This document shows positions 1,058-11,529 of a DNA stretch of 44,572 bases, piece by piece; positions within the stretch are counted from its first letter, which is position 1; the number at the start of each line of letters is the position of its first letter. The position numbers were made by a program, and so were the translations under genes. This stretch comes from Candidatus Lindowbacteria bacterium RIFCSPLOWO2_12_FULL_62_27. GTDB lineage: Bacteria > Lindowbacteria > 2-12-FULL-62-27. Under the pieces are notes generated by a model, which was given only the letters and a program-made list of their open reading frames with translations, was not told the origin of the DNA and made no database searches. The stretch spans positions 579 through 45,150 of the forward strand of contig MFPR01000027.1 in NCBI GenBank assembly GCA_001784175.1, read 5' to 3'.

Positions 1058-1080
1058 AATTTTGTTTCGGGCAGTTTGGT

Positions 1081-1152: not shown

Positions 1153-1167
1153 CCCGACTGCCTGGAT

Positions 1168-1252: not shown

Positions 1253-1257
1253 TTTTT

Positions 1258-1331: not shown

Positions 1332-1359
1332 CAAATTCTCAAGAAGGAGGTCGGAGAAA

Positions 1360-1587: not shown

Positions 1588-1588
1588 C

Positions 1589-1667
1589 TGCGGAGGGGAG
1601 GTGGACGGCGGAGCCGTCTTCGAGGGCCCATAACCCTCTTAAGCCGGTGCGACTCCGGCCTCCGCTA
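1589..1667 (+). tRNA. tRNA-like, anticodon CAT, initiator-like features. About 79 nt with an expanded D region; possibly a pseudo or atypical tRNA.
   Basis: Acceptor gcggag/ctccgc with an unpaired 1:72. Anticodon stem gaggg/ccctc carries three consecutive G-C pairs, as in initiator tRNA. Loop ccCATaa. T stem gccgg/ccggc with loop TGCGACT. An extra 5-bp hairpin gacgg-cggag-ccgtc sits in the D region. Confidence 0.35.
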
Positions 1668-1668
1668 T

Positions 1669-1753
1669 GGACTCGTCGCCTAATTGGAATGGCCCCAGAC
1701 TCTTAATCTGGCGGGCGTTACGCCCATTGGGAGTTCGAGTCTCCCCGGGTCCA
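1669..1753 (+). tRNA. class II-shaped tRNA with anticodon CTT (Lys-type)
   Basis: Acceptor ggactcg/cgggtcc. 3-bp D stem gcc/ggc. Anticodon stem ccaga/tctgg, loop ctCTTaa. 17-nt extra arm forms hairpin gggcg-tta-cgccc. T arm gggag-TTCGAGT-ctccc. Discriminator A. Confidence 0.55.
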
Positions 1754-1760
1754 TTTGTAT

Positions 1761-1843
1761 TCCGAGGTCGCCTAATTGGTCGGGCAGCGCACTGTTAATG
1801 CGCCGCGGATTTCGCACTGTGGGTTCGAATCCCACCCTCGGAG
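1761..1843 (+). tRNA. class II-shaped tRNA with anticodon GTT (Asn-type)
   Basis: Acceptor tccgagg/cctcgga. 3-bp D stem gcc/ggc. Anticodon stem gcgca/tgcgc, loop ctGTTaa. 15-nt extra arm (gcg-gattt-cgc). T arm gtggg-TTCGAAT-cccac. Discriminator G. Confidence 0.55.
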
Positions 1844-1909
1844 TTTTTTCAAACGGTTTGAAGGAGGTGATGGAATTGAAATCGGACAAAGACGGTAAAG
1901 GGTAGTGAT

Positions 1910-1982
1910 GGGCTTGTAACTCAATTGGCTGAGTACCGGACTTTTAATCCGGGAGATGTGGGTTCGAGTCCCACCGGGCCCA
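1910..1982 (+). tRNA. tRNA-Lys(TTT)
   Basis: Acceptor gggcttg/cgggccc. D stem actc/gagt. Anticodon stem ccgga/tccgg, loop ctTTTaa. T arm gtggg-TTCGAGT-cccac. Confidence 0.85.
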
Positions 1983-1988
1983 AGATAC

Positions 1989-2073
1989 GGCGCAGTGGTG
2001 GAACTGGGATACACGCGAGTCTCAGAAACTCGTGCTCTATTCGAGCGTGAGAGTTCGAATCTCTCCTGCGCCA
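1989..2073 (+). tRNA. tRNA-Leu(CAG), class II
   Basis: Acceptor ggcgcag/ctgcgcc. 3-bp D stem. Anticodon stem cgagt/actcg, loop ctCAGaa. Extra arm gctc-tatt-cgagc. T arm gagag-TTCGAAT-ctctc. Discriminator A. Confidence 0.85.
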
Positions 2074-2078
2074 TTTTT

Positions 2079-2152
2079 GCGGCATTCGTATAGGGGCAAT
2101 ACATCACGTTGCCAACGTGAAGACACGAGTTCAATTCTCGTATGCCGCTCCA
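2079..2152 (+). tRNA. tRNA-Gly(GCC), CCA encoded
   Basis: Acceptor gcggcat/atgccgc. D stem gtat/atac. Anticodon stem tcacg/cgtga, loop ttGCCaa. T arm acgag-TTCAATT-ctcgt. Discriminator T, then CCA. Confidence 0.85.
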
Positions 2153-2155
2153 AGT

Positions 2156-2390
2156 GGAGGGTGAATCGATCGGGGATCGGCGCTGTGTGCTACACAGTTG
2201 GTCCGCCATGCGCGGATAGGGGTCGGCCGTTCGCGACATCCGTGTCGCTCGGCGGCACTTCCTCCGTCCATGGAGGTCGGGACCTTCGCCCTCCGTTACG
2301 GAGAGTCAACCTCGCAGGGCGAGGCACTGGTTTGAAACCAGAGGGTCCGCGAAAGTGGATGAGGATCGAGACCTCGGCTCTCCGCAAGAT
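2156..2390 (+). ncRNA. structured RNA-like element A (unassigned family). Domain 1 spans 2156-2294 and domain 2 spans 2299-2384.
   Basis: Not a tRNA. A 6-7 bp closing helix ggaggg(t)/(g)ccctcc encloses domain 1, which holds a 64-nt core nearly identical to element B. A second domain is closed by (c)ggagag/ctctcc(g). Internal hairpins tccgc-N5-gcgga and cctcc-gtccat-ggagg. Compensatory changes relative to paralog B. Confidence 0.4.
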
Positions 2391-2463
2391 GCGGGCGTGG
2401 TGTTCAACAGCAGCATGACAGTCTTCCAAACTGTCGGTGCCGGTGCAATTCCGGTCGCCCGCT
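2391..2463 (+). tRNA. tRNA-Gly(TCC)-like. Weak D arm, non-canonical T-loop TGCAATT.
   Basis: Acceptor gcgggcg/cgcccgc. Anticodon stem acagt/actgt, loop ctTCCaa. T stem gccgg/ccggt. The D loop lacks GG. Confidence 0.5.
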
Positions 2464-2469
2464 CAAAAC

Positions 2470-2543
2470 AGCCTCGTCGTCCAACTGGACAGGACACCTC
2501 TTTGCGAAGGAGGAGATTGCGCGTTCAAGTCGCGCCGAGGCTA
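2470..2543 (+). tRNA. tRNA-Arg(GCG)-like, atypical D arm
   Basis: Acceptor agcctcg/cgaggct. Anticodon stem cctct/ggagg, loop ttGCGaa. T arm gcgcg-TTCAAGT-cgcgc. The D region is one nucleotide too long with a short loop. Confidence 0.45.
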
Positions 2544-2545
2544 TA

Positions 2546-2780
2546 GGGAAGGTGAACCTCGCGGGCGGGGCGCTGTTTGGAAGACAGTCGGTCCGCTTAA
2601 AGCGGATGCGGGTCGGCCGTTCGCGACATCCCTGTCGCTCTGCGGCACTTCCTCCGTCCATGGAGGTCGGGACCGCCGCCTTCCGTTGTGGAGAGTGAAA
2701 CCGGGAAGCCCGATCGCCGTTCCGAAGACGGATGGCCCCGCCATGCGGGGTGGGGTGCGATACCTCCGCTCTCCGAAATA
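2546..2780 (+). ncRNA. structured RNA-like element B, paralog of A. Domain 1 spans 2547-2684 and domain 2 spans 2689-2775.
   Basis: Closing helix ggaagg(t)/(g)ccttcc. The 4th pair is A-U here versus G-C in element A. The 64-nt core at 2611-2674 is about 97% identical to 2221-2284. Hairpin tccgc-ttaaa-gcgga has the same stem as in A with a different loop. Second domain closed by (t)ggagag/ctctcc(g). Confidence 0.4.
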
Positions 2781-2851
2781 GGCCGGTAGTATCAACAGTA
2801 GAACGTCGGTCTCCAAAACCGAAGGTCTCGGGGCAGAACCGAGCCGGCCTG
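2780..2851 (+). tRNA. tRNA-Trp(CCA)-like. Poor D stem, non-canonical T-loop GGCAGAA.
   Basis: Acceptor aggccgg/ccggcct. Anticodon stem tcggt/accga, loop ctCCAaa. T stem ctcgg/ccgag. Confidence 0.45.
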
Positions 2852-2903
2852 TGACTGAAAGGAATCCCCGAGGTACTCGCCCGAAGGGCGGGTCGGGGAC
2901 CAT

Positions 2904-2976
2904 GGGCACTGAGCAGGCGTAGTCGTTGCGTCCGGCTGAAGACCGGAAGAGCGTGGTGCGATCCCACGAGTGCCCA
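2904..2976 (+). tRNA. tRNA-Phe(GAA). T-loop TGCGATC.
   Basis: Acceptor gggcact/agtgccc. D stem gcag/ttgc. Anticodon stem tccgg/ccgga, loop ctGAAga. T stem cgtgg/ccacg. Discriminator A. Confidence 0.7.
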
Positions 2977-2979
2977 CTT

Positions 2980-3049
2980 CGCGGCGAGCAGAGAAGCTCT
3001 GGGATGGTCTGCAAAACCATCAAAGTCGGGGCGGTACCGACCGCCGTGT
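2980..3049 (+). tRNA. tRNA-Cys(GCA)-like. Short D loop, non-canonical T-loop GGCGGTA.
   Basis: Acceptor cgcggcg/cgccgtg (one G-U). D hairpin cagag-aagc-ctctg. Anticodon stem atggt/accat, loop ctGCAaa. T stem gtcgg/ccgac. Confidence 0.45.
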
Positions 3050-3052
3050 CAC

Positions 3053-3123
3053 GCCCGATTAGGTCAGTGGCAGACCAACCGTCTTGTAAGCGGTGAACGT
3101 CGGCTCGATTCCGACATCGGGCT
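3053..3123 (+). tRNA. tRNA-Thr(TGT). T-loop CTCGATT.
   Basis: Acceptor gcccgat/atcgggc. D stem ggtc/gacc with a GG loop. Anticodon stem accgt/gcggt, loop ctTGTaa. T stem gtcgg/ccgac. Confidence 0.75.
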
Positions 3124-3130
3124 TACCTGC

Positions 3131-3203
3131 GCCCTCCTAATTCAATTGGACAGAAACGGGAGTTTCTACCTCTCGGATGCGTGTTCGAGTCACGCGGAGG
3201 GCA
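3131..3203 (+). tRNA. tRNA-Arg(TCT)
   Basis: Acceptor gccctcc/ggagggc. D loop contains GG. Anticodon stem gggag/ctctc, loop ttTCTac. T arm gcgtg-TTCGAGT-cacgc. Confidence 0.8.
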
Positions 3204-3209
3204 ATTCTC

Positions 3210-3280
3210 GCCGCCATAGTTCAGTGGCAGAACAGAAAACTCGTAATTTTCAGACCTGCGTTCGATTCGCAGTGGCGGCT
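3210..3280 (+). tRNA. tRNA-Thr(CGT)
   Basis: Acceptor gccgcca/tggcggc. D stem gttc/gaac. Anticodon stem gaaaa/ttttc, loop ctCGTaa. T arm ctgcg-TTCGATT-cgcag. Confidence 0.85.
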
Positions 3281-3284
3281 TTTC

Positions 3285-3356
3285 GGGGGCGTAGTGAGAA
3301 CGATAACACGGCTGGTCTGCACCCAGCAGATGAGAGTTTGAATCTCTCCGCCTCCA
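3285..3356 (+). tRNA. tRNA-Ala(TGC) with the G3:U70 identity pair
   Basis: Acceptor gggggcg/cgcctcc with G3-U70. Anticodon stem gctgg/ccagc, loop tcTGCac. T arm gagag-TTTGAAT-ctctc. Discriminator A. Confidence 0.75.
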
Positions 3357-3361
3357 CTTTT

Positions 3362-3447
3362 CGGCGTGTGGCTGAACGGTAAAAGCGCCGTCCTGATAAG
3401 GCGGTGGGCTGAAGTAGTCCGCGTGCGTTCGACTCGCACCGCGCCGA
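3362..3447 (+). tRNA. class II-shaped tRNA with anticodon GAT (Ile-type)
   Basis: Acceptor cggcgtg/cgcgccg. 3-bp D stem gct/agc with a GG loop. Anticodon stem ccgtc/ggcgg, loop ctGATaa. 18-nt extra arm (gggc-tgaagta-gtcc). T arm gtgcg-TTCGACT-cgcac. Discriminator A. Confidence 0.55.
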
Positions 3448-3455
3448 GCATTTAC

Positions 3456-3548
3456 CCACGGGTAGCATAGCGGCCAATGCAGCAGGCCTATAACCTGCGT
3501 TAGCTCCGGACTGGGGCGAGATCGTGGGTTCGAGTCCCACCCCGTGGA
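3456..3548 (+). tRNA. class II-shaped tRNA with anticodon TAT (AUA-reading or Ile2-type). Very long extra arm of about 25 nt.
   Basis: Acceptor ccacggg/cccgtgg. D stem gcat/atgc with a GG loop. Anticodon stem gcagg/cctgc, loop ccTATaa. T arm gtggg-TTCGAGT-cccac. Discriminator A. Confidence 0.45.
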
Positions 3549-3569
3549 TTTGATGTGTGAGGTACATAC

Positions 3570-3644
3570 GGCTCGGTGGTGTAGCAGCCTGCACACGGCT
3601 CTGTCACAGCCGAGGTACGAGGGCAGCACTCGTCCGAGCCGCCA
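3570..3644 (+). tRNA. tRNA-Asp(GTC), CCA encoded. Non-canonical T-loop GGCAGCA.
   Basis: Acceptor ggctcgg/ccgagcc. Anticodon stem cggct/agccg, loop ctGTCac. T stem acgag/ctcgt. Discriminator G, then CCA. Confidence 0.6.
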
Positions 3645-3645
3645 T

Positions 3646-3721
3646 CAGGGAATGGGATAATCTGGTAGTCCGCCGCACTTGGGACGCGGTCGTCCGAGTT
3701 CAAATCTCGGTTCCCTGACCA
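3646..3721 (+). tRNA. tRNA-Pro(TGG), CCA encoded
   Basis: Acceptor cagggaa/ttccctg. D stem ggat/gtcc with a GG loop. Anticodon loop ctTGGga. T arm ccgag-TTCAAAT-ctcgg. Discriminator A, then CCA. Confidence 0.75.
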
Positions 3722-3733
3722 AACTTCAAGTAC

Positions 3734-3808
3734 GGGCGCGTGGTCCAGCAGCGAAGACATCAGTCCTACAAACTGAAAACCTCGGTGCAAGTCCGAGCGT
3801 GCCCACCA
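3734..3808 (+). tRNA. tRNA-Val(TAC), CCA encoded. T-loop TGCAAGT.
   Basis: Acceptor gggcgcg/cgtgccc. Anticodon stem tcagt/actga, loop ccTACaa. T stem ctcgg/ccgag. Discriminator A, then CCA. Confidence 0.7.
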
Positions 3809-3865
3809 AATCTGACCGACCGGATGGAGGAAATGTCGCGGGCGCCAGGGATGGCGCAGGAGCGA

Positions 3866-3942
3866 CCTCTCGTCGCCCAATTGGAAAAGGCACCGATTTC
3901 CTAAATCGGGGACTGCGCGTTCGAATCGCGCCGAGAGGCCCA
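3866..3942 (+). tRNA. tRNA-Arg(CCT), CCA encoded
   Basis: Acceptor cctctcg/cgagagg. D stem gcc/ggc with a GG loop. Anticodon stem ccgat/atcgg, loop ttCCTaa. T arm gcgcg-TTCGAAT-cgcgc. Discriminator C, then CCA. Confidence 0.8.
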
Positions 3943-3955
3943 GTAAGACCAATGA

Positions 3956-4028
3956 CCGCTCGTAGTGAAACTGGATATCACGCGACGCTTCGAACGTCGT
4001 AATGAGGGTTCGAATCCTTCCGAGCGGA
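3956..4028 (+). tRNA. tRNA-Arg(TCG)
   Basis: Acceptor ccgctcg/cgagcgg. D stem gtga/tcac with a GG loop. Anticodon stem cgacg/cgtcg, loop ctTCGaa. T arm gaggg-TTCGAAT-ccttc. Confidence 0.85.
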
Positions 4029-4033
4029 TTTGT

Positions 4034-4116
4034 GGCGATGTGGCGGAACGGAATACGCGGCTGTTTCAAGAACAGTTGATCGTAAGATCGTGAGAGTTCG
4101 ACTCTCTCCATCGCCA
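4034..4116 (+). tRNA. tRNA-Leu(CAA), class II
   Basis: Acceptor ggcgatg/catcgcc. 3-bp D stem. Anticodon stem gctgt/acagt, loop ttCAAga. Extra arm gatcg-taa-gatcg. T arm gagag-TTCGACT-ctctc. Discriminator A. Confidence 0.8.
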
Positions 4117-4121
4117 ATTTT

Positions 4122-4205
4122 GCGGGCGTGGCGGAATGGGATACGCGGCGGATTTAAGACCCGCTGGGGCAGAGCCCCGTGCAGGTTCAAGTCCTGTCAC
4201 CCGCA
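4122..4205 (+). tRNA. tRNA-Leu(TAA), class II
   Basis: Acceptor gcgggcg/cacccgc (one mismatch). 3-bp D stem. Anticodon loop ttTAAga. Extra arm ggggc-aga-gcccc. T arm gcagg-TTCAAGT-cctgt. Discriminator A. Confidence 0.7.
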
Positions 4206-4208
4206 TTC

Positions 4209-4295
4209 GGCCGAGTGGTGGAACTGGAATACACGCGCGGTTGAGGTCCTCGTGGACGAAAGTAGTCCTTGCGAGTTCGAGTCTCGCCTCGGCCA
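4209..4295 (+). tRNA. tRNA-Leu(GAG), class II
   Basis: Acceptor ggccgag/ctcggcc. 3-bp D stem. Anticodon loop ttGAGgt. Extra arm ggac-gaaagta-gtcc. T arm gcgag-TTCGAGT-ctcgc. Discriminator A. Confidence 0.75.
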
Positions 4296-4300
4296 GTTTT

Positions 4301-4373
4301 GGGGCGGTAGGCGAATGGTAGAGCCGCCGGCCTTTCAAGCCGGAGTCTGTGGGTTCAAGTCCCATCCGCCCTG
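4301..4373 (+). tRNA. tRNA-Glu(TTC)
   Basis: Acceptor ggggcgg/ccgccct (G1-U72). D stem ggc/gcc. Anticodon stem ccggc/gccgg, loop ctTTCaa. T arm gtggg-TTCAAGT-cccat. Discriminator G. Confidence 0.8.
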
Positions 4374-4377
4374 TTGT

Positions 4378-4450
4378 GGGGGTATCGGCTAATCGGCAGG
4401 CCGCCGTGTTCTCAGCGCGGAAACCGCGGGTTCGAATCCCCGTACCCCTG
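4378..4450 (+). tRNA. tRNA-Glu(CTC)-like. Imperfect T stem.
   Basis: Acceptor gggggta/tacccct. D stem ggct/ggcc. Anticodon stem ccgtg/cgcgg, loop ttCTCag. Only 3 of 5 T-stem pairs form around TTCGAAT. Discriminator G. Confidence 0.45.
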
Positions 4451-4455
4451 GTCAT

Positions 4456-4530
4456 TGGGGAGTCGTCTAATAGGTAGGACGCGAGACTTTGGATCTCGCT
4501 ATGCAGGATCGAAGCCTGCCTCCCCAGCCA
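4456..4530 (+). tRNA. tRNA-Gln(TTG), CCA encoded. Non-canonical T-loop ATCGAAG.
   Basis: Acceptor tggggag/ctcccca. Same architecture as the first Gln. Anticodon stem cgaga/tctcg, loop ctTTGga. Discriminator G, then CCA. Confidence 0.7.
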
Positions 4531-4645
4531 TTTTCGAACAAATACGAACGTTGGCGCGGGCACGCCAGCGGCGCACAGGTGACCAAGTATCTTGGATTTC
4601 ATTTGTGCGTTCCGCCAATGGATTCTAAACGTGCCCGGAGCCAGA

Positions 4646-4718
4646 CGTTGGTTAGCTCAGCAGGCAGAGCATCAGGCTGTGAACCTGAGAGTCGCGGGTT
4701 CGAATCCCGCACCAACTT
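4646..4718 (+). tRNA. tRNA-His(GTG)-like, second copy. 1:72 mismatch.
   Basis: Acceptor cgttggt/accaact with C1 unpaired against T72. D stem gctc/gagc with a GG loop. Anticodon stem tcagg/cctga, loop ctGTGaa. T arm gcggg-TTCGAAT-cccgc. Confidence 0.55.
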
Positions 4719-5070
4719 CGGGTGGAAACACCCGCCAGTGGAAAACCGCGCAAGCGGGCTCAGAACGCGTCCGATGGAGACGAACGCTCGATCAACTGGC
4801 CGACGCGCGGATAATGGCCGCACCGGAAGTACGCGCCGGCGTCTGTCGGAGGCAACACAAATACGCCGCCCTGCAGCTCGCAGATACCGCATCGCCGACC
4901 GTGGCAACCTCCGACGGATTTCATACTCGTCGGAAAACCCATGCGAGCGATGCTCAAGCGACGCTCCGCGGATGATGTGCAGTTGGACTTGCCGTTCGTC
5001 TCCTGAGGGCCTTATTTCAACACATATCGAGAAAGGCGAAATCAAAAATCAGAAAGGGAGGTGAATCGCC

Positions 5071-6177
5071 ATGTTCTTGATTGGATACCGGAAGATTCGT
5101 TCCTACGAGAGGGGCCTGTACTTCTACGATGGGGAGTTCCGGAAAATTCTGGCCACAGGCCGACATTGGTTCGTGGATCCTCTGAACCGCATCCGGATCG
5201 ATGTTGTGTCCCAGCGCGACCCCTGGCTGGACCATGACAAGCTCGACATCATCGTCAAGTCCGGTGTCCTCAAGGACGAGGCGGTGGTACTGGACCTGAA
5301 GGACTATGAGCGCGCGCTCGTGTGGATCGACGGCCGGTTCAGCCGCGTGCTGGATGCAGGTCTCTACGCGATGTGGTCCAAGTTCCGCGACATCAAGACG
5401 GAGATCGTTGACGCGCGGGCCGTGCTGTTCGAGCACAAGAGCATCGACGTCATCCTGAAGTCGGGGGGTGTCGATGCAGTGCTCAATGTCTTCAACGTCG
5501 AGGAGGGTCACGCCGGCGTCTATTTCAAGGACGGTGAATACGTCAAGACACTGGCTCCGGGCAAGTATGCGACGTGGAAGAACGTCGGCAAGGTCAAGTT
5601 CTACCACCTCGACGTGCGCGAGACGGTACTCGACGTGGCCGGCCAGGAGATCATGACGGCCGACAAGGTCACGCTCCGGATGAACGCGATCGTGACCTAT
5701 CGCATCGTTGATGCCCGCAAGTCCGTCGAAACGGTCGGAGACGTGGCGCAGGCGCTGTATCGTGAGGCGCAGCTGGCGCTTCGTGCCGCAGTCGGCACAC
5801 GAGAGCTTGAGCCGCTTCTGGTCGACAAGACCGACGTTGCGAAGGAACTCGAGTCCGTCATTCGCCGACGCGCGAGCGAGTTCGGCATTCACGTGATCGG
5901 TCTTGGCATTCGAGACATCATCCTGCCGGGCGACATGAAGACGTTGCTCAACAAGGTGCTCGAGGCCAAGAAGGCGTCCGAGGCGAACGTGATTCTGCGA
6001 CGCGAGGAGACGGCAGCCATGCGCAGCCAGCTCAACACGGCGAAGCTCATGGAGGACAATGCGGTTCTGATGCGCCTCAAGGAACTGGAGGTGCTGGAGA
6101 AGGTCGCGGGCGCGTCTAAGCTGAGCGTCGTGCTGGGTGAGAAGGGATTGGCCGAGCGTGTGGTCAATCTGCTGTGA
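5071..6177 (+). CDS. SPFH/band-7 (stomatin/prohibitin-like) domain protein with three N-terminal ~35-aa repeats
   Basis: RBS GGGAGGTGA lies 6 nt before the ATG. A 368-aa ORF. Its C-terminal half has SPFH-like composition (TADKVTLRMNAIVTYRI...GIRDIILPGDM...coiled-coil tail). The N-terminus has three tandem ~35-aa repeats. Confidence 0.8.
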   Translation: MFLIGYRKIRSYERGLYFYDGEFRKILATGRHWFVDPLNRIRIDVVSQRDPWLDHDKLDIIVKSGVLKDEAVVLDLKDYERALVWIDGRFSRVLDAGLYAMWSKFRDIKTEIVDARAVLFEHKSIDVILKSGGVDAVLNVFNVEEGHAGVYFKDGEYVKTLAPGKYATWKNVGKVKFYHLDVRETVLDVAGQEIMTADKVTLRMNAIVTYRIVDARKSVETVGDVAQALYREAQLALRAAVGTRELEPLLVDKTDVAKELESVIRRRASEFGIHVIGLGIRDIILPGDMKTLLNKVLEAKKASEANVILRREETAAMRSQLNTAKLMEDNAVLMRLKELEVLEKVAGASKLSVVLGEKGLAERVVNLL

Positions 6178-6389
6178 GCAGTAAGGAGGAACGATGTTTA
6201 CGGTAGACGAGTTTGAAAGCGGCGGAGGGGGGCCGGATCAAAAACGCAGCGGCGGCCCCCCTCCTTGGAGCCGGGTGATCCGAACAAACAGGCAACACCG
6301 TATTCAACGCCCGCATGGTGTGAGTGGCAGCACGTCGCCGGGGTAAGGCGGAGGTCTCGGATCAAAACCGAGTGCGGGCTTGATCAATT

Positions 6390-7061
6390 ATGTTCAGGAG
6401 GAATGATGTGACTGGTGTACTGGTTCAACCAACGTTGCTTTTGAATTCCAGTTTTCTGCCGGTGTCGGTCATCCGTGTGATGGAGGCAATCTGTCTGCTC
6501 GTTACTTCCAAAGCCGATCTAATAGACGGTGACGAGAGGGAACCGATCCGTTCGCAAAGATTGTCGATCCCTCTGCCGAGGGTCGTACGCCTGTTGAATT
6601 TCAACGGGATTCCGTCGAACCCGGCCTGGTCAAGATTGAAGGTGATTTACCGGGACGACATGACCTGCGCCTGGTGCGGCAAGCGCGGCCGTATGGAGGA
6701 ACTGGACTGCGACCACATCATTCCCCGATCACGGTGGCACGTTTGTCCGCCGAATCTTCGCCGAGCATACGAAGTTCCACGAGTGAAACTCCAGAACATT
6801 GCAGCCCCTTGGAATTCGTGGATGAACACCCTCGCGGCCTGTCGAAAATGCAACGCCGCCAAGGGAAATCTCTATCCATGGGAGATGGGCCACCGCCCCC
6901 TCTGGTCGCCGTACGAGCCGGAATACGTCCCATCCATCATTGTCAGCTTCGAGCGAGCAAAAAATCTTGGCTGGCTGGATTATCTGCTCACGCGCCGCGG
7001 GACGCTCGTCTATCCGTCGGGAGTGCGTGCCGTGGGTGTGCCCTCCAGAAAACGGATATAG
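6390..7061 (+). CDS. HNH endonuclease family protein
   Basis: RBS AGGAGGAATG precedes the ATG. HNH motif CAWCGK...DHIIP...N...CRKCNAAKG (CxxC...H...N...CxxC). Confidence 0.75.
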   Translation: MFRRNDVTGVLVQPTLLLNSSFLPVSVIRVMEAICLLVTSKADLIDGDEREPIRSQRLSIPLPRVVRLLNFNGIPSNPAWSRLKVIYRDDMTCAWCGKRGRMEELDCDHIIPRSRWHVCPPNLRRAYEVPRVKLQNIAAPWNSWMNTLAACRKCNAAKGNLYPWEMGHRPLWSPYEPEYVPSIIVSFERAKNLGWLDYLLTRRGTLVYPSGVRAVGVPSRKRI

Positions 7062-7075
7062 TATTTAATACTAAT
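7059..7075. repeat. 17-bp AT-rich near-palindromic site TAGTATTTAATACTAAT, copy 1
   Basis: Identical 17-mer at 9114-9130. Both copies sit in short AT-rich intergenic islands of a GC-rich genome. Confidence 0.7.
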
Positions 7076-7154
7076 TTATTGACTACTGGACAAATCACTG
7101 GTACATGCAGTATAGACACTGTAAGACCGAATAAACTGATGGGGGTGGTCCATT

Positions 7155-7433
7155 GTGACGGTTCCAGAAACAGAATCGAACGAGGCACAGAAAACCGAAG
7201 AAATCTGTAAGCGTAAACCCGGGATTCCGGACGTGCCCATTCCATCTGGCCCGTACCTGAATTCTGTAGAAGCCGCCTGTTATTTGCGCTTGTCGCTCGG
7301 CACAATCGCCAACCTTGTATCCGAGGGGAAGATTCCTTTTGCAAAAGCGGGCCGCCGGCGCGTCTTCCGTAGGACCGACCTCGATGAATATGTCGAGAAG
7401 TCGTACAAGCCGGCAGTCCACAACTCGTTTTAG
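7155..7433 (+). CDS. excisionase/Xis-like helix-turn-helix DNA-binding protein
   Basis: GTG start with a GGGGGTGG RBS. The C-terminal segment SVEAACYLRLSLGTIANLVSEGKIPFAKAGRRRVFRRTDLDEYV resembles the excisionase-family (MerR-like) HTH. Confidence 0.55.
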   Translation: MTVPETESNEAQKTEEICKRKPGIPDVPIPSGPYLNSVEAACYLRLSLGTIANLVSEGKIPFAKAGRRRVFRRTDLDEYVEKSYKPAVHNSF

Positions 7434-7945
7434 GCCGGCTCTTCAGGGAAATCCTTCCTGGGAAAAGGAATAATTTTGTTCTGCCCAAGATCTTTCTTCA
7501 CGGCAGATTCCTCGAAGCCTGGCAACGGTGCTTGTGGCGGAGTTTCCTTGCGAGTTTCCGTCCGGTAGATTTCCTCTTTGTTTTTCATTCGAAAGTGTCG
7601 CACCAAATCTTCGACGCCCCGCTGCTGACCATCCTTTAAGTCCTCGATCCCGATCAAAGATCCTCGGGACCATTTTGTGGTCAGGATGCCATCCCCGGGC
7701 AGTTTCTGATGGGCGCCTATATCTTGGCCGAGAACATAGAGCGCCTGCTGATAAGGGATGACATTTGGTGTTCCCGATGATGAGAGGATCTTCAAATACT
7801 GATCCAAGGTCGGCACCGCGCGCCCAGTGAGAATCTTTCGGAATTCAGGAGCCTTCAGGAATGGCAGATCAAGATGACGGGTGATTCGACGTAAGAAGAC
7901 ATGTAGCCTCAGTGGCTTCTTCAACGGGGTCGTGGGCTCGTTCAA
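7430..7945 (-). CDS. hypothetical protein (171 aa)
   Basis: ORF convergent with the xis-like gene. No recognizable domain. Confidence 0.4.
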   Translation of the reverse strand: MNEPTTPLKKPLRLHVFLRRITRHLDLPFLKAPEFRKILTGRAVPTLDQYLKILSSSGTPNVIPYQQALYVLGQDIGAHQKLPGDGILTTKWSRGSLIGIEDLKDGQQRGVEDLVRHFRMKNKEEIYRTETRKETPPQAPLPGFEESAVKKDLGQNKIIPFPRKDFPEEPA

Positions 7946-8214
7946 TTACCACAGGAATGCTGCTTCGACTTCGACTGCGTTCGGTTCATCGTCGGCCTCC
8001 TCGATATGAATATCCCCCTCAGAATTCCGGTGATTCGGGAGGCGACGGGGTTTTCCTGAACGACGTTGATCAAGTATCGCGACAGATCACTGATCAGTCA
8101 AAATCAGATTTTCTCTGGCTGAATCTTTTTGTTTGGAGGATTGATTGGCGGCAGATTTTCCACAATCGCGCGGCGGATACTACAAGTTTCTAAAAGGGAT
8201 ACTACCAGTACAGC

Positions 8215-8283
8215 GTGACAAGATGCACAGGCCGGACGTGACAGCATATCGTGCGTTTCTCTCGGACGGCCGTGTGACAAGAT
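8215..8283. repeat. iteron-like direct repeats GTGACA(A/G)(G/C)AT x3, at 8215, 8238 and 8274
   Basis: Three copies within 70 bp in the non-coding gap downstream of the Rep-like gene. Two copies are identical (GTGACAAGAT). Confidence 0.5.
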
Positions 8284-8324
8284 ACCGTGCACAATTCCCA
8301 GAATCCACACGGAAGTGTGGACAA

Positions 8325-9095
8325 CTATTGTGGAACCGACGGCGGGGATGGCCTCAAGATCAGATGTCGAGCTTCGAGTTCGACTTTCGCATCCGGATAG
8401 ACTGCGAGTACCCGGATGAGATTTTCACGCAACGCGCGTTTAAAAAAGCGCAGCCGGGAATAATCGGCTCCAAACTGACAGAACAGGGCACATAGGGGAA
8501 TAGCCGTTGCGGTACGGAGATAACTGAAGCGGTAGGTGAGCCAGGCATAGAGATCGATCGCCAGAGATGAGCGTTTCAAGGTGCAGATGGCATCCGGTCG
8601 CAATGGAATCGACGATTGCACCGCATGAAGATAAAACTCCGCCGTTACGCGGATCTCTGTTTGAAAGAGGGATCGTTCATACGGTCGCTTGGGGTCCCAC
8701 CAGAGTTCAAACTCCACGGCGACTCTCATTTGCTCGATCACGCCGGACATTCGACCGAATGCGATGGTTGACGCCAGAAGCCGGCTGACTTGGTCGTAGA
8801 ATCGCCGGCGCGTGTGGCCGTCCGGACTCAAGCCAAGCCCTGCTAGAAACGAATGGTAGGACTCGTCGAGTTCTATTCGCCGTTGCCCTGTGATCAAAAT
8901 CTGCCTGGTGAGCCACATGAGAAACAGCCGGGGGTAACTCGCGTAGGGCAGACCCAGATTCGGGTTGGCCCGAACATTGAGGACATAGTCATTGGCGCGG
9001 CGGGTCCAGATGGTTTCACCGGCGCGGTCGGAATGGGGGAGGTTCGCCACAACGAAGGACTTCGGAAGATAGACGGGGTTGGTCTTGGCATTCAT
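8325..9095 (-). CDS. hypothetical protein, possibly a plasmid/ICE-type replication initiator (weak call)
   Basis: 256-aa ORF flanked by iteron-like repeats and TCCACA/TGTGGA motifs. It is divergent from the HTH regulator and integrase genes. The functional guess rests on context only. Confidence 0.45.
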   Translation of the reverse strand: MNAKTNPVYLPKSFVVANLPHSDRAGETIWTRRANDYVLNVRANPNLGLPYASYPRLFLMWLTRQILITGQRRIELDESYHSFLAGLGLSPDGHTRRRFYDQVSRLLASTIAFGRMSGVIEQMRVAVEFELWWDPKRPYERSLFQTEIRVTAEFYLHAVQSSIPLRPDAICTLKRSSLAIDLYAWLTYRFSYLRTATAIPLCALFCQFGADYSRLRFFKRALRENLIRVLAVYPDAKVELEARHLILRPSPPSVPQ

Positions 9096-9113
9096 GTGGC
9101 CGCAAGGTATTAG

Positions 9114-9130
9114 TATTTAATACTAATGTC
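9114..9130. repeat. 17-bp site TAGTATTTAATACTAAT, copy 2
   Basis: Identical to 7059-7075. Extended, it reads ATTAGTATTTAATACTAAT, which is nearly palindromic. Confidence 0.7.
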
Positions 9131-9150
9131 AATGTGTTTGGGGCAATTTG

Positions 9151-9212
9151 TCCACAATACCAACAGGCTATCCACAAACCTTGACATGACCGGTCGCGGC
9201 TGGGATAATTCG
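9151..9212 (+). promoter_or_regulatory. two TCCACAA direct repeats (9154-9160 and 9174-9180) followed by a promoter TTGACA (9184-9189) -17 nt- GATAAT (9207-9212)
   Basis: Near-consensus -35/-10 with 17-nt spacing. Two TCCACAA boxes 20 bp apart lie immediately upstream. The inverse TGTGGA appears at 8316 and 8331, and TCCACA at 8304 and 8160. Confidence 0.55.
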
Positions 9213-9237
9213 CGCACTACCGCAAAGGGGGCCATCC

Positions 9238-9669
9238 ATGGAGCAAGGTGAAAGGATATACGAGATATTCCGCAAGCGCGCCAAGGCGCGAGAGCTGACC
9301 GTTCAAGAAATCGTCAACGGGCTCGGCAAGAAGGATACAACCCACTACAGCCTTTATCAGTTCTCCATCGGCAAGAGCATGCCGCCGATTCACAAGCTCG
9401 CCGCGTATTTCGAATCCGTGGGCATGCGCCTCCTTCTTGAGGCGGATGGAAACGTCTATGCGCTTGAGTTCAAGGACCGGGTCCAGCCGAAGCGGGAGGG
9501 CGACCGGATGATGGTCGGCGAGCGCGTCAGTGTCGGAGGCGAGTACGCGGATCTCACGCCGGACCAGATCAGCGCCGTCGAAGCCCTGGTTGCGTCGTTC
9601 CGAGCCACAAACAAGCGCGTGAAACGATCCCGGGTCGAAACAGCGGCCAAGGTCAGACGGGCCGCGTAG
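9238..9669 (+). CDS. helix-turn-helix (XRE/Cro-like) transcriptional regulator
   Basis: 143-aa ORF downstream of the strong promoter. N-terminal segment ELTVQEIVNGLGKKDTTHYSLYQFSIGKSMPPIHKLAAYFESVGMRL resembles an HTH. Confidence 0.55.
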   Translation: MEQGERIYEIFRKRAKARELTVQEIVNGLGKKDTTHYSLYQFSIGKSMPPIHKLAAYFESVGMRLLLEADGNVYALEFKDRVQPKREGDRMMVGERVSVGGEYADLTPDQISAVEALVASFRATNKRVKRSRVETAAKVRRAA

Positions 9670-9681
9670 GGGACAAATCCC

Positions 9682-10788
9682 ATGGGCGTTCGAGCGATCA
9701 CGCGATTACCGAGTGGCGAATATCGCGTCAATTTCTATTACTGGAATCAGATCGGCATGAAGCATCGCGGGCGGAAGAAATTCCGTACGCTGCGGCTTGC
9801 AGAGACGTTCTATGCCGAGAGGATTCGTGAATTTGAAGCGAAGGTGCATGTTGGCTCGAAGGAGCGAGGGTCGATCACGGTGAAGCAATTCCTGGACCAG
9901 CATTATTATCCATGGGCGCAGAAGGCCAAGAAATCTTATCCCGTGGAAAGAGTGTTCATGAGGAATACCGAAGTGCGATGGGGCGAACGCCGACTCTCGT
10001 CAATCACTGTGTTTGATATTGAAAAGTGGCGGATTGAAATGAAGCAGAAGGTCTGCCCGGCGACCGTCAGCCGCCGACTGGCGTATCTTCGGTCCTTCTT
10101 CAAATTCGCGCATGCCGGCATGACGGACGAGGATGGCCACACGGTCGGCGGCGGATTCATCGGCGACAATCCGATGCGGCATGTTCGAAGCCCGAAAACG
10201 AAGCTGCCTCTTCGACCGCCGACGATTCTGGCGCCGGATGAAATTGCGAGGCTCAAGCCCGATGGGACGCGCGGGATGGATCTCGTTTTATTCTGCATTT
10301 ATTCGGGGATGCGCCGGGGCGAGATATTCCGGATGCGGTACGAGGACATAGATCGCGTGGCCGGCGTCATCCGGATCCCCGTCACGAAAAACGACGAGCC
10401 GCGGATCATTCCGTTGACGAAACAGCTTGCCGGTATTATTGACAGACAACCGGTGGACGATTCGGGATTTGTTTTTTCATGGAAGGGAAGGCAAACTAGG
10501 GACTGTCGTAGCGCGATCAATCAGGCGCTCTGGCGCGTGGGGATCACACGGCGGGTCCGGATGCATGACCTTCGCCACACGTTCGGCTCGTACCTGGCCA
10601 TGAACGGGGTAGACTTGGACGAAAGGATGGCTCTGATGGGGCACAAGACAATCACAGCGGCGCGGATTTATACCCATTATTATACGAAACGCCTGTCGGA
10701 GTCGATGGAGAGGCTGATGGAGGCCTATGAGACGGCCGAGGAGAAAACAAAAGGGCACAAAAAGGGCACTGAGGCGATTGCCGTATGA
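9682..10788 (+). CDS. int: tyrosine-type site-specific recombinase / phage integrase
   Basis: C-terminal catalytic motifs: R...HDLRHTFGSYLAMNGVDLDERMALMGHKTITAARIYTHY (HxxR...Y). 368 aa. Lies immediately upstream of tRNA-Thr(CGT). Confidence 0.9.
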   Translation: MGVRAITRLPSGEYRVNFYYWNQIGMKHRGRKKFRTLRLAETFYAERIREFEAKVHVGSKERGSITVKQFLDQHYYPWAQKAKKSYPVERVFMRNTEVRWGERRLSSITVFDIEKWRIEMKQKVCPATVSRRLAYLRSFFKFAHAGMTDEDGHTVGGGFIGDNPMRHVRSPKTKLPLRPPTILAPDEIARLKPDGTRGMDLVLFCIYSGMRRGEIFRMRYEDIDRVAGVIRIPVTKNDEPRIIPLTKQLAGIIDRQPVDDSGFVFSWKGRQTRDCRSAINQALWRVGITRRVRMHDLRHTFGSYLAMNGVDLDERMALMGHKTITAARIYTHYYTKRLSESMERLMEAYETAEEKTKGHKKGTEAIAV

Positions 10789-10824
10789 GGCGTACTTTTA
10801 TAATTCTCTCTTGTAGTTATGGTT

Positions 10825-10897
10825 GCCAACGTAGCTCAGACGGTAGAGCAACGCACTCGTAATGCGTAGGTCGGCGGTTCGATTCCGCCCGTTGGCT
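10825..10897 (+). tRNA. tRNA-Thr(CGT)
   Basis: Acceptor gccaacg/cgttggc. D stem gctc/gagc with loop AGACGGTA. Anticodon stem acgca/tgcgt, loop ctCGTaa. T arm ggcgg-TTCGATT-ccgcc. Discriminator T. Confidence 0.85.
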
Positions 10898-10944
10898 TTT
10901 TTTGTGAGTGGGTCGCAGGCCAGAGTGCGCGGGAGATTTGATGG

Positions 10945-11205
10945 TTACTTGATCTGCTCCTGCAGCGCCGCGATTTTTTGGGACGCCTCCCGGAACTGCT
11001 TCAGGGTGAGCACGCAGAGGTACCAAGTATAGGGAATCATGACGATCGTGAGAAGGATTTTTGACCGTTTGCCGAAATTGGGACTTTGATAAAGGATCGG
11101 CAGGCCAAAGGGTCCCAGCACGAAAAACAACAAGAAAAGAATCATCCATGGCCTTTGATGCCATAGAATTTTCGCAGCATCGTTCTCCACGATCATCACC
11201 TCCAA
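10945..11205 (-). CDS. small membrane protein (86 aa), hypothetical
   Basis: Two hydrophobic segments (WMILFLLFFVLGPFGLPILY and ILLTIVMIPYTWYLCVL). Confidence 0.4.
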   Translation of the reverse strand: MEVMIVENDAAKILWHQRPWMILFLLFFVLGPFGLPILYQSPNFGKRSKILLTIVMIPYTWYLCVLTLKQFREASQKIAALQEQIK

Positions 11206-11250
11206 GGGGTGGCAGAAGCCACGGCACCGTGGGCGTTCCGCCGACGCGTT

Positions 11251-11529
11251 TCAGCGAAAGCGATAGTGTTTCCGGACCGCCTTCGACACCACCCACGTGC
11301 ACGAGAGACCTTTTGGAAACGAGACATAATCGCCGGGACCGAAACTCACCTCGCCCGCCGGTGTCCGGACCGTGACCTGCCCTTCGAGGATGCAGCAGTC
11401 CTCGTCGTCATCGTAATGCCAGTCGAACGTGCTCGGATCGCATGTCCAGATCGGCCATGCTTCGACGCCGAGCTTCTTCCTTTCCTCTTCGGATAATTTC
11501 CGGATTTCGACTTCGTTTTTCATGGGCAA
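11251..11529 (-). CDS. cupin-domain protein (DUF861/cupin_3-like)
   Basis: The 92-aa sequence ...DCCILEGQVTVRTPAGEVSFGPGDYVSFPKGLSCTWVVSKAVRKHYRF is characteristic of small cupins. Confidence 0.65.
   Translation of the reverse strand: MPMKNEVEIRKLSEEERKKLGVEAWPIWTCDPSTFDWHYDDDEDCCILEGQVTVRTPAGEVSFGPGDYVSFPKGLSCTWVVSKAVRKHYRFR

What the first reader, a model, noticed from the sequence alone, without database searches (positions are those of the whole stretch)
8158..9180. Iteron-like repeats and TCCACA/TGTGGA boxes surround the Rep-like gene, suggesting a possible origin or operator cluster
There are three GTGACA(A/G)(G/C)AT direct repeats at 8215, 8238 and 8274 in the gap downstream of the 8325-9095 gene. 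An inverted pair TCCACA (8304) and TGTGGACAA (8316) plus TTGTGGAAC (8329) sit at its 3' end. TTCCACAAT is at 8158. Two TCCACAA boxes spaced 20 bp apart (9154 and 9174) directly abut the -35 of a near-consensus promoter. This organisation resembles iteron-regulated plasmid/ICE replication or partition modules.
Basis: seen in the sequence. Interest (0 to 1): 0.6.

Follow-up and report, generated by a model that had tools for sequence, protein, structure and literature searches.

The report
Plasmid-type replication origin in an island
The repeats are real and mark a plasmid-style replication origin (initiator binding repeats flanked by binding sites for the host protein DnaA) just downstream of a RepA gene in a small integrated mobile element; this is an ordinary new example of a known kind of module.

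Summary
The motifs are all present; a few coordinates are off by 1-3 bp. The 256-aa protein (8325-9095, minus strand) is a RepA_C plasmid initiator. Its predicted fold matches the iteron-binding initiators RepE and RctB.

The TCCACA/TGTGGA boxes are DnaA boxes. TTTTCCACA at 8156 is the only perfect TTWTNCACA in the 44.6-kb window, and TTGTCCACA occurs at 8316 (minus strand) and 9148.

In 76 distant RepA_C loci from many phyla, including real plasmids, the 400 bp after the repA stop codon show one shared layout: DnaA box, 3-4 iterons, CTRTAG/CTGTAG repeats, DnaA box. Window 8156-8324 fits this layout.

In a 93%-identical sibling element, the motif positions and the repA promoter region are far better conserved than synonymous sites.

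The neighbouring genes are an integrase, an excisionase-like gene and a tRNA-Thr. The closest studied parallel is the rep-oriV module of Salmonella Genomic Island 1.

Verdict: the origin reading is supported. The partition reading is not. The two boxes next to the promoter are specific to this element and their role is unknown. This is a new member of a known kind, of modest interest.

The parts
8325..9095 (-). repA: 256-aa replication initiator of the RepA_C family
   Evidence: Pfam PF04796, E 3.2e-17, 63.8 bits against a cutoff of 26. AlphaFold2 mean pLDDT 89.3. Top Foldseek PDB hits are RctB domains 2-3 and RepE54-iteron co-crystals, probability 1.00. 1091 PLSDB plasmids carry a homologue, annotated 'replication protein RepA' in the records listed. 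pN/pS 0.11 against the sibling element.
8075..8324 (.). Proposed oriV as a whole: non-coding DNA directly downstream of repA
   Evidence: Layout matches the family-wide layout. Single-base indels relative to L001 at 8047, 8125 and 8256 argue against coding. No gene is called here in L001.
8316..8324 (-). DnaA box TTGTCCACA, directly after the repA stop codon
   Evidence: Unchanged in L001. The family has a box at +3 to +21 after the stop in many loci.
8301..8309 (+). Weaker DnaA-like box GAATCCACA, forming TCCACA-N6-TGTGGA with the box at 8316
   Evidence: The same inverted arrangement with N6 spacing occurs in plasmid pW9NP1. The two L001 changes flank the 6-bp cores and do not keep the seventh stem pair.
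8329..8337 (-). TCCACA box (GGTTCCACA, 2 mismatches to the DnaA consensus) inside the last repA codons; weakest member
   Evidence: Some homologues also carry a box in their last 10-20 coding bases.
8274..8290 (+). Iteron 3, GTGACAAGATACCGTGC (reads CACGGTATCTTGTCAC in the repA direction)
   Evidence: Resembles the family iteron CACGGTGAAACGGTAC at both ends. One change in L001, at the degenerate position.
8238..8254 (+). Iteron 2, GTGACAGCATATCGTGC
   Evidence: In L001 the GTGACA..AT half is kept and the CGTG half is changed.
8215..8231 (+). Iteron 1 (half-match), GTGACAAGATGCACAGG
   Evidence: No change in L001.
8175..8209 (+). Two 13-bp repeats GGATACTAC(A/C)AGT spaced 22 bp in a 40% G+C stretch; counterpart of the family's CCTGTAGT/CTATAG repeats; candidate unwinding element
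   Evidence: D12; G+C. Across the family CTRTAG occurs at 3.1/kb downstream against 0.27/kb elsewhere.
8156..8164 (+). Outer DnaA box TTTTCCACA
   Evidence: The only perfect TTWTNCACA in the window. In L001 it reads ATATCCACA: the core is kept while five of the neighbouring bases change. The family has an outer box 130-190 bp from the inner one.
8075..8150 (.). A+T-rich stretch (36-40% G+C) outside the outer DnaA box
   Evidence: Similar A+T-rich DNA follows the outer box in relatives.
9096..9237 (.). Divergent control region between repA and the 143-aa gene
   Evidence: 5 of 142 positions differ from L001, with a 95-bp run unchanged, against pS 0.20 in the flanking genes.
9110..9126 (.). Perfect 17-bp palindrome TTAGTATTTAATACTAA; candidate operator filling the spacer of a putative repA promoter (-35 TTGACA 9132-9127, -10 TACCTT 9109-9104, minus strand)
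   Evidence: The promoter was read by eye; the -10 is weak and was not reported by the scan.
9148..9156 (+). DnaA-type box TTGTCCACA between the divergent promoters
   Evidence: Identical in L001. No enrichment of such boxes upstream of repA across the family.
9168..9176 (+). DnaA-type box CTATCCACA, 4 nt upstream of the -35
   Evidence: Identical in L001.
9181..9209 (+). Near-consensus promoter of the 143-aa gene
   Evidence: TTGACA-17-GATAAT, 11 of 12 matches, TG extension.
9238..9669 (+). 143-aa gene of unknown family; candidate regulator (helix-turn-helix only suspected by eye)
   Evidence: No Pfam, NCBIfam or PHROG match. pN/pS 0.13.
9682..10788 (+). Tyrosine integrase
   Evidence: PF00589 E 1.2e-24. 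phrog_1 integrase E 2e-60.
7155..7433 (+). Excisionase-family helix-turn-helix gene
   Evidence: PF12728 E 3e-13. TIGR01764 'excise', 49.2 bits against a cutoff of 28.8.
7059..7075 (.). Second copy of the palindrome; left limit of the block shared with L001
7430..7945 (-). 171-aa gene of unknown function downstream of oriV, conserved in L001
   Evidence: pN/pS 0.25. No family match.
10825..10897 (+). tRNA-Thr(CGT) next to the integrase gene; right limit of the block shared with L001

Best explanation
**What it is.** Window 8075-8324 is the vegetative replication origin (oriV) of a small integrated mobile element. The gene just upstream of it (8325-9095, minus strand) encodes its initiator, a tandem winged-helix RepA_C protein.

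**Proposed mechanism (inferred).**
1. The integrase and the excisionase-like protein cut the element out of the chromosome.
2. RepA monomers bind the three direct repeats at 8215, 8238 and 8274.
3. Host DnaA binds the flanking DnaA boxes: 8156-8164 on one side and 8301-8324 on the other.
4. Together they open the A+T-rich DNA between or beside them. Candidates are the 13-bp repeat pair at 8175-8209 and the 36-40% G+C stretch at 8075-8150.
5. The host helicase is loaded and theta-type replication follows.

**Control of repA (inferred).** repA is transcribed from a promoter whose 17-bp spacer is a perfect palindrome. A dimeric repressor could therefore keep replication off while the element is integrated. 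The repressor may be the divergently encoded 143-aa protein.

**Shown here.** The motifs, the protein family and fold, the family-wide origin layout, and selective constraint on the motifs.

**Not shown.** Binding, melting, excision and regulation.
For: 1. **Protein.** RepA_C, E 3e-17. The confident model (pLDDT 89) best matches RctB domains 2-3 and RepE54 bound to iteron DNA.
2. **DnaA boxes.** 8156 TTTTCCACA is the only perfect TTWTNCACA in 44.6 kb. All three exact TTNTCCACA copies seen in the window's box scans lie within this 1 kb.
3. **Iterons in relatives.** 60 of 76 RepA_C loci at 30-40% protein identity have at least 3 copies of an 11-mer within 400 bp after the stop codon, against 11 of 123 control segments.
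4. **DnaA boxes in relatives.** Perfect boxes occur at 0.97/kb downstream against 0.05/kb elsewhere. TCCACA density peaks only at 0-400 bp after the stop.
5. **CTRTAG repeats in relatives.** 3.1/kb downstream against 0.27/kb elsewhere.
6. **Constant box, varying iteron.** Iteron sequences differ between loci while the box stays the same. That is what a conserved host factor predicts.
7. **Real plasmids.** The same order of parts is seen in pW9NP1 and pPRO2.
8. **Sibling element L001.** Synonymous divergence is 0.20. Only 5 of 83 motif positions changed (p 3e-4) and 5 of 142 in the promoter region (p 9e-9).
9. **Literature.** In SGI1, a RepA_C Rep and a downstream oriV with four 17-bp iterons and a DnaA box are both needed for replication of the excised island (PMC7433901). 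REP modules of RepA_C plasmids were defined, with predicted oriVs, in Polaromonas (PMC6015842).
10. **Context.** Integrase, excisionase-like gene and a tRNA lie next door. G+C is 52-56% here against 62-66% in the rest of the window.
Against: - Only three iterons are present, and only two are full-length. In L001 the second half of iteron 2 is not conserved.
- Spacings of 23 and 36 bp are less regular than the 22/33/44 bp common in the family.
- The window's iteron shares only its two ends with the family consensus.
- No attachment-site repeat or element end was found, so excision is unproven.
- The element lies on the 5' side of the tRNA, which is unusual.
- The repA promoter's -10 is weak (3 of 6) and was not reported by the scan.
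- The only close relative is 93% identical, so footprinting power is limited.
- All evidence is computational.
Confidence: 0.8

Rival explanations
1. The TCCACA boxes are operators for a protein encoded by the element (RepA dimers or the 143-aa protein), not DnaA boxes. The cluster would then be mainly a transcriptional control region.
For: - Two boxes lie between divergent promoters, 4 nt from a -35.
- This upstream pair is not a family-wide feature.
- The whole intergenic region is strongly conserved.
Against: - The boxes match the DnaA consensus.
- Across phyla the downstream box is constant while iterons and Rep proteins diverge. That fits a host factor rather than a co-evolving element protein.
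- The palindrome is a better operator candidate.
Confidence: 0.1
2. The inverted pair at 8304/8316 is simply the repA transcription terminator hairpin, and its likeness to the other boxes is incidental.
For: - It folds into an 8-bp stem with a 4-nt loop directly after the stop codon.
- SGI1 also has a predicted terminator downstream of rep (PMC7433901).
Against: - The fold is not better than shuffles (z -1.67) and no U-tract follows.
- The L001 changes next to the cores are not compensatory.
- TCCACA-N6-TGTGGA recurs in pW9NP1 with a full TTATCCACA box.
- The two roles could coexist.
Confidence: 0.15
3. The module is an inactive remnant of an integrated plasmid, and the repeats no longer function.
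For: - Few and imperfect iterons.
- No element ends found.
- RepA lacks the N-terminal extension of about 30-130 aa that its homologues have.
Against: - repA, int and the 143-aa gene are under purifying selection in two hosts, with pN/pS 0.08-0.13.
- Motif and promoter positions are conserved well below the neutral rate.
- The block sits in different flanking DNA in the two genomes, implying recent mobility.
Confidence: 0.1
4. The repeats are integrase arm-type sites or partition (centromere) sites.
For: Direct repeats near an integrase gene could in principle be arm sites.
Against: - The repeats lie 1.4 kb or more from the integrase gene and from the limits of the shared block.
- No ParA or ParB gene is present in the element.
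- The same repeat layout occurs in plasmids that show no detectable integrase nearby.
Confidence: 0.03

Closest known systems
rep (S003)-oriV module of Salmonella Genomic Island 1 (PMC7433901)
   Same: - A RepA_C-domain initiator.
- The origin lies directly downstream of rep, with about four 17-bp iterons, a DnaA box, A+T-rich DNA carrying short repeats, and a stem-loop after rep.
- The module sits beside int and xis in an integrated element.
   Different: - The iteron sequence is unrelated: RKGGGGGHRATTATGCG in SGI1 against GTGACA..AT..CGTG here.
- SGI1 rep is switched on by the helper-plasmid activator AcaCD. Here the likely control is a palindromic operator plus two DnaA-type boxes.
- The gene order around the origin differs.
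- No mobilisation genes or helper are known here.
- The similarity of this RepA to SGI1 Rep was not measured.
RepA_C-type plasmid replicons, for example Polaromonas pW9NP1 and pH8NP1 (PMC6015842), Pelobacter propionicus pPRO2, and PromA-type plasmids such as pTer331
   Same: - RepA at 34-38% identity.
- In pW9NP1 and pPRO2 the same downstream order is seen: DnaA box, three iterons, CCTGTAG repeats, with or without a second box.
   Different: - Those are free plasmids with partition or toxin-antitoxin genes; this module is chromosomally integrated next to an integrase.
- The central part of the iteron differs.
- pTer331 has a much longer RepA and no gap after the gene.
Classical iteron replicons with tandem winged-helix initiators: mini-F RepE, pPS10 RepA, R6K pi, Vibrio chromosome 2 RctB
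   Same: - The predicted fold matches RepE54 and RctB domains 2-3.
- Direct repeats, DnaA boxes and A+T-rich DNA are all present.
   Different: - No sequence-level match to any solved structure.
- The origin lies downstream of the rep gene, not upstream.
- No inverted half-iteron operator was found in the repA promoter.

Membership tests
RepA_C (PF04796) replication initiators | Significant match to the Pfam model above its gathering score | tested here: met
   63.8 bits against a cutoff of 26, E 3.2e-17, residues 50-195. All 25 database homologues carry PF04796.
RepA_C (PF04796) replication initiators | Homologues act as the replication gene of real plasmids | tested here: met
   1091 PLSDB plasmids carry a match, annotated 'replication protein RepA' in the records listed. 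RepA_C is listed as the replication-protein family of plasmids pW9NP1 and pH8NP1 (PMC6015842).
Iteron-type theta replicon (winged-helix initiator) | Initiator with two winged-helix domains like RepE, pi or RctB | tested here: met
   AlphaFold2 pLDDT 89.3, pTM 0.89. Foldseek hits to RctB domains 2-3 and RepE54 with E 4.5e-7 to 5.7e-4 and TM up to 0.68 on the target.
Iteron-type theta replicon (winged-helix initiator) | Three or more direct repeats of about 17-22 bp, phased on the helix, next to the rep gene | tested here: inconclusive
   Three copies share a 10-nt core, but only two are full 17-mers. Spacings are 23 and 36 bp. Position and order fit the family.
Iteron-type theta replicon (winged-helix initiator) | DnaA box or boxes in the origin | tested here: met
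   One perfect TTWTNCACA at 8156, and TTGTCCACA at 8316 on the minus strand. Boxes are enriched about 20-fold downstream of repA across the family.
Iteron-type theta replicon (winged-helix initiator) | A+T-rich unwinding region beside the iterons | tested here: met
   36-40% G+C at 8075-8149 and 40% at 8175-8224, against 52-58% in most of repA itself and 62-66% in the rest of the window. Actual melting was not tested.
Iteron-type theta replicon (winged-helix initiator) | Autonomous replication that depends on rep and on the origin | not testable with these tools
   Needs cloning and a replication assay.
Iteron-type theta replicon (winged-helix initiator) | Rep autorepression through an inverted half-iteron in its own promoter | tested here: not met
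   No iteron-like sequence lies in 9096-9237 at up to 1 mismatch to the 10-nt core. An unrelated 17-bp palindrome occupies the promoter spacer instead.
SGI1-like replicating integrative element | int, xis and rep-oriV clustered in an integrated element | tested here: met
   Integrase, excisionase-family gene and RepA_C within 3.7 kb beside a tRNA. The block is shared with L001 in different flanking DNA.
SGI1-like replicating integrative element | Defined attL/attR, with excision to a circle that replicates | tested here: inconclusive
   No direct repeat of the tRNA or of the block ends was found in the window or in L001. The far end may lie outside the window.
SGI1-like replicating integrative element | Activation by a helper-plasmid regulator (AcaCD), and mobilisation genes | not tested
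   No AcaCD site search was run. No mobilisation genes were recognised among the ORFs examined.

The most novel reading that the evidence does not exclude
RepA_C replicons in many phyla may share one fixed, so far undescribed origin grammar. In it, two same-direction DnaA boxes 130-190 bp apart bracket 3-4 iterons and a set of CTRTAG/CCTGTAGT repeats that act as a family-specific unwinding or host-factor element. In this island the origin may additionally be wired to host DnaA through two extra DnaA boxes placed between the divergent repA and regulator promoters. Replication after excision would then follow the host's initiation state.
Probability: 0.3. Interest if true: 0.45.

Novelty: new member of a known kind. 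Interest (0 to 1): 0.3.

Why it matters
- It annotates an otherwise unnamed gene and a 380-bp gap as a complete replication module. It also marks the surrounding 4 kb, and probably more, as an integrative element that can likely replicate once excised, as SGI1 does.
- The cross-phylum comparison gives a practical signature for finding origins of RepA_C replicons in metagenomes: DnaA box, iterons, CTRTAG repeats, DnaA box, all just after repA. Origins of this family are rarely annotated.
- It offers a compact repA-oriV cassette that might serve as a vector backbone for poorly studied groundwater or soil bacteria.
- It does not change the current understanding of plasmid replication.

Tried and rejected
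- **PDB sequence search with RepA:** no hit even at E 10. Only the fold comparison was informative.
- **NCBIfam and PHROGs:** nothing for RepA, the 143-aa protein or the 171-aa protein.
- **Rfam on 1-11500:** only tRNAs, so no known RNA lies in the origin gap.
- **Attachment sites:** no repeat of the tRNA-Thr or of the block ends was found in the window or in L001.
- **Iteron-like operator in the repA promoter:** none found.
- **Family-wide enrichment of TCCACA upstream of repA:** absent. The promoter-side boxes therefore cannot be generalised.
- **Terminator reading of the 8304/8316 hairpin:** weak.
- **Plasmid pF-183-3 (AP025255.1):** not in the annotated plasmid collection.
- **pTer331:** no gap after repA, so its origin lies elsewhere.
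- **Partition reading:** rejected, because there are no par genes.
- **Integrase near the other RepA_C loci:** only 5 of 80 have a detectable relative of this integrase within 4 kb. Most relatives therefore show no sign of an integrative context; some are real plasmids.
Full report
**1. The observation**

- GTGACA(A/G)(G/C)AT occurs exactly three times in the window, at 8215, 8238 and 8274. Shuffles give 0.15.
- TCCACA or its complement occurs at 8159, 8304, 8316 (minus), 8329 (minus), 9151 and 9171. That is six of the window's 24 copies within about 1 kb; about 14 are expected for the whole 44.6 kb.
These are only small offsets.
- The promoter is real as a consensus match: TTGACA 9181-9186, a 17-nt spacer, GATAAT 9204-9209, 11 of 12 matches with a TG extension.

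- Two 13-bp repeats, GGATACTAC(A/C)AGT, at 8175 and 8197, 22 bp apart.
- A perfect palindrome, TTAGTATTTAATACTAA, at 9110-9126, with a second copy at 7059-7075.
- The boxes are DnaA boxes. TTTTCCACA at 8156-8164 is the only perfect TTWTNCACA in the window. TTGTCCACA occurs at 8316-8324 (minus) and 9148-9156, and CTATCCACA at 9168-9176. From my own knowledge, not tested here, TTGTCCACA is the preferred DnaA box of high-G+C bacteria such as Streptomyces.

**2. The gene and its neighbours**

The ORF at 8325-9095 (minus strand, 256 aa) matches Pfam RepA_C (PF04796) at E 3.2e-17. A sequence search of the PDB found nothing. An AlphaFold2 model built on 20 homologues is confident: pLDDT 89.3, pTM 0.89. 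Its best structural matches are RctB domains 2-3 and many RepE54-iteron DNA co-crystals, at probability 1.00. The protein is therefore a tandem winged-helix, iteron-binding type of initiator.

In PLSDB, 1091 plasmids encode a relative, annotated 'replication protein RepA' in the records listed.

The surrounding genes are:

- a 143-aa gene of no known family, transcribed divergently (9238-9669);
- a tyrosine integrase (9682-10788);
- tRNA-Thr(CGT) (10825-10897);
- on the other side, a 171-aa unknown gene (7430-7945, minus strand);
- an excisionase-family gene (7155-7433).

G+C is 52-56% in this region against 62-66% in the rest of the window. This is an integrated foreign element.

**3. A close sibling**

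A groundwater metagenome-assembled genome (GCA_016202645.1, locus L001) carries window 7059-10905 at 93% identity, in different flanking DNA.

Synonymous divergence in repA, int, the 143-aa gene and the 171-aa gene is 0.19-0.22. pN/pS is 0.08-0.25, so the genes are under selection.

Taking 0.20 as the neutral rate:

| Region | Positions changed | Probability under neutrality |
|---|---|---|
| DnaA-box, iteron-core and 13-bp-repeat positions | 5 of 83 | 3e-4 |
| Rest of 8095-8324 | 24 of 147 | not different from neutral |
| repA / 143-aa-gene intergenic region (9096-9237) | 5 of 142, with a 95-bp run unchanged | 9e-9 |

The five changes inside motifs fall at degenerate positions. For example, TTTTCCACA becomes ATATCCACA while five neighbouring bases change.

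Single-base indels in the gap argue against a hidden coding sequence.

**4. Distant relatives: the decisive evidence**

Eighty genome loci encoding RepA_C proteins at 30-40% identity were fetched. They come from Acidobacteriota, Planctomycetota, Proteobacteria, Cyanobacteria, Actinobacteria and others, and include a complete Bryobacterales plasmid. The locus that duplicates the sibling genome was left out of every count below.

| Feature | Downstream of repA | Comparison |
|---|---|---|
| TCCACA/TGTGGA density | 3.7, 2.4, 1.8 and 1.2 per kb in the four 100-bp bins after the stop | about 0.3 per kb elsewhere, including upstream of the gene |
| Perfect DnaA boxes | 0.97 per kb | 0.05 per kb elsewhere |
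| Loci with at least 3 copies of an 11-mer (up to 1 mismatch) | 60 of 76 | 11 of 123 control segments |
| CTRTAG | 3.1 per kb | 0.27 per kb elsewhere |

Reading the sequences gives one recurring order in the repA direction:

1. stop codon;
2. TGTGGA(A/T/C)AA, which is a reverse DnaA box;
3. often GTTATCCAC;
4. three or four iterons, such as CACGGTGAAACGGTAC or CACGCATAAACGGTAC, usually 22-24, 33 or 44 bp apart;
5. A+T-rich CCTATAG...CCTGTAGT repeats;
6. a second TGTGGA(A/T)AA, 130-190 bp from the first;
7. A+T-rich DNA.

The same order is seen in two sequenced plasmids, Polaromonas pW9NP1 and Pelobacter propionicus pPRO2.

The window fits part for part. Read in the repA direction:

- boxes at +4 and +16 after the stop;
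- iterons CACGGTATCTTGTCAC, CACGATATGCTGTCAC and a half copy;
- ACTGGTAGTATCC and ACTTGTAGTATCC, which correspond to CCTGTAGT;
- TGTGGAAAA at +161;
- then 36-40% G+C DNA.

The iteron sequence differs from locus to locus while the box does not. That is what is expected if the iterons are read by the element's own Rep and the box by a conserved host protein, DnaA.

**5. Mechanism**

The best-supported reading is a theta-type, iteron-controlled origin.

- RepA binds the three repeats at 8215-8290.
- DnaA binds the flanking boxes.
- The A+T-rich repeat pair at 8175-8209, or the stretch at 8075-8150, is opened.

These steps are inferred from family knowledge and layout. None has been shown here.

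The control region has a putative minus-strand repA promoter: -35 TTGACA at 9132-9127 and -10 TACCTT at 9109-9104. Its 17-nt spacer is exactly the palindrome, and its -10 ends 9 nt before the ATG. There is no Shine-Dalgarno sequence and no earlier in-frame start. This suggests a leaderless repA mRNA repressed by a dimeric protein. That is my reading; the -10 is weak and the scan did not report it.

The two DnaA-type boxes at 9148 and 9168 lie between the divergent promoters. They are conserved in the sibling, but TCCACA boxes show no enrichment upstream of repA across the family. Their role is open: regulation by DnaA, or binding by another protein.

The inverted pair at 8304/8316 can form a small hairpin. 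However, it has no U-tract, it is no better than shuffles, and the sibling's changes next to it are not compensatory. The same TCCACA-N6-TGTGGA arrangement occurs in pW9NP1 with a full TTATCCACA box.

**6. Comparison with what is known**

The closest studied system is Salmonella Genomic Island 1. Its Rep has a RepA_C domain. Its oriV lies directly downstream of rep, with four 17-bp iterons, a DnaA box and A+T-rich repeats. Deleting rep or oriV abolishes replication of the excised island (PMC7433901). Polaromonas plasmids pW9NP1 and pH8NP1 are RepA_C replicons for which origins were predicted (PMC6015842).

The window's module is therefore a new member of a known kind. The differences are:

- an iteron sequence with a diverged centre;
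- a short RepA lacking the N-terminal extension of its relatives;
- a palindromic operator candidate in place of an inverted half-iteron;
- two promoter-side DnaA-type boxes;
- an integrated context, which is detectable in only a few of the relatives.

**7. Open points**

- The element's ends were not found.
- The shared block ends 8 bp after tRNA-Thr(CGT), and the element lies on the tRNA's 5' side. This is unusual for tRNA-targeting integrases.
- The left end of the block is exactly the palindrome at 7059. In the sibling, window position 490 follows after only about 70 bp. Window 491-7058 is therefore an insertion specific to this copy. It holds a dense array of 28 tRNA genes, an SPFH gene, tRNA-Thr(GGT) and an HNH endonuclease gene.

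**8. Verdict**

The finding is solid but ordinary, and its interest is modest. The tRNA array next door is the more unusual feature of this region.

Noticed in passing
window 985-4719 (insertion block 491-7058): A dense same-strand array of 28 tRNA genes by ARAGORN, with one more at 2780-2851 by Rfam. It is followed by an SPFH/Band 7 gene (5071-6177), tRNA-Thr(GGT) (6309-6380) and an HNH endonuclease gene (6390-7061). The whole 6.5-kb block is absent from the 93%-identical sibling element L001, where window positions 490 and 7059 are about 70 bp apart. The array therefore looks like cargo inserted into the mobile element.
   Followed up: partly
window 1668-1754, 1760-1844, 3361-3449, 3456-3548: ARAGORN draws four tRNAs of the array with a long variable arm and an 8-bp acceptor stem. 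Their anticodons are Lys(CTT), Asn(GTT), Ile(GAT) and Ile(TAT), which normally belong to short-arm tRNAs. The array has no tRNA-Ser, Met, Trp, Cys or Asp. The shapes recall tRNASec-like or 'allo-tRNA' species (PMC5389517); this is a lead only and was not tested.
   Followed up: partly
window 7059-7075 and 9111-9127: An identical 17-bp sequence, TAGTATTTAATACTAAT, containing a perfect palindrome, occurs twice. One copy fills the spacer of the putative repA promoter. The other lies exactly at the point where similarity to L001 breaks, and it overlaps the stop codon of the HNH gene. It may be an operator and also a hot spot for module exchange.
   Followed up: partly
window 10789-10905; L001 4190-4315: The integrase end of the element abuts the 5' side of tRNA-Thr(CGT). 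Similarity to L001 stops 8 bp after the tRNA's 3' end. No att-like repeat of the tRNA was found in the window or in L001. Either the tRNA belongs to the element or the integration geometry is unusual.
   Followed up: partly
window 9093-9132 (minus strand): repA seems to lack both a leader and a Shine-Dalgarno sequence. The first possible start codon (ATG, 9095) lies 9 nt after the putative -10 hexamer, so the mRNA may be leaderless.
   Followed up: no
window 1-490; L001 7835-9026: About 1.2 kb in L001 has no called gene. Part of it is 93% identical to window 1-490, beyond the palindrome. The content is unknown, and it suggests the element continues to the left of the window.
   Followed up: no
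L004 1-7098: On an 11-kb metagenome contig, a RepA_C gene at 41% identity sits next to genes for a DnaB-like helicase, a Toprim primase and a ParA-like protein. Some relatives therefore carry their own helicase and primase.
   Followed up: no
L010, L014, L015, L017, L018, L023, L045, L063 (Terracidiphilus and other Acidobacteriaceae loci): In this subgroup the four iterons lie about 170-260 bp after the repA stop and in the opposite orientation (for example GTACACCGTTT). This is an inverted version of the origin layout.
   Followed up: no
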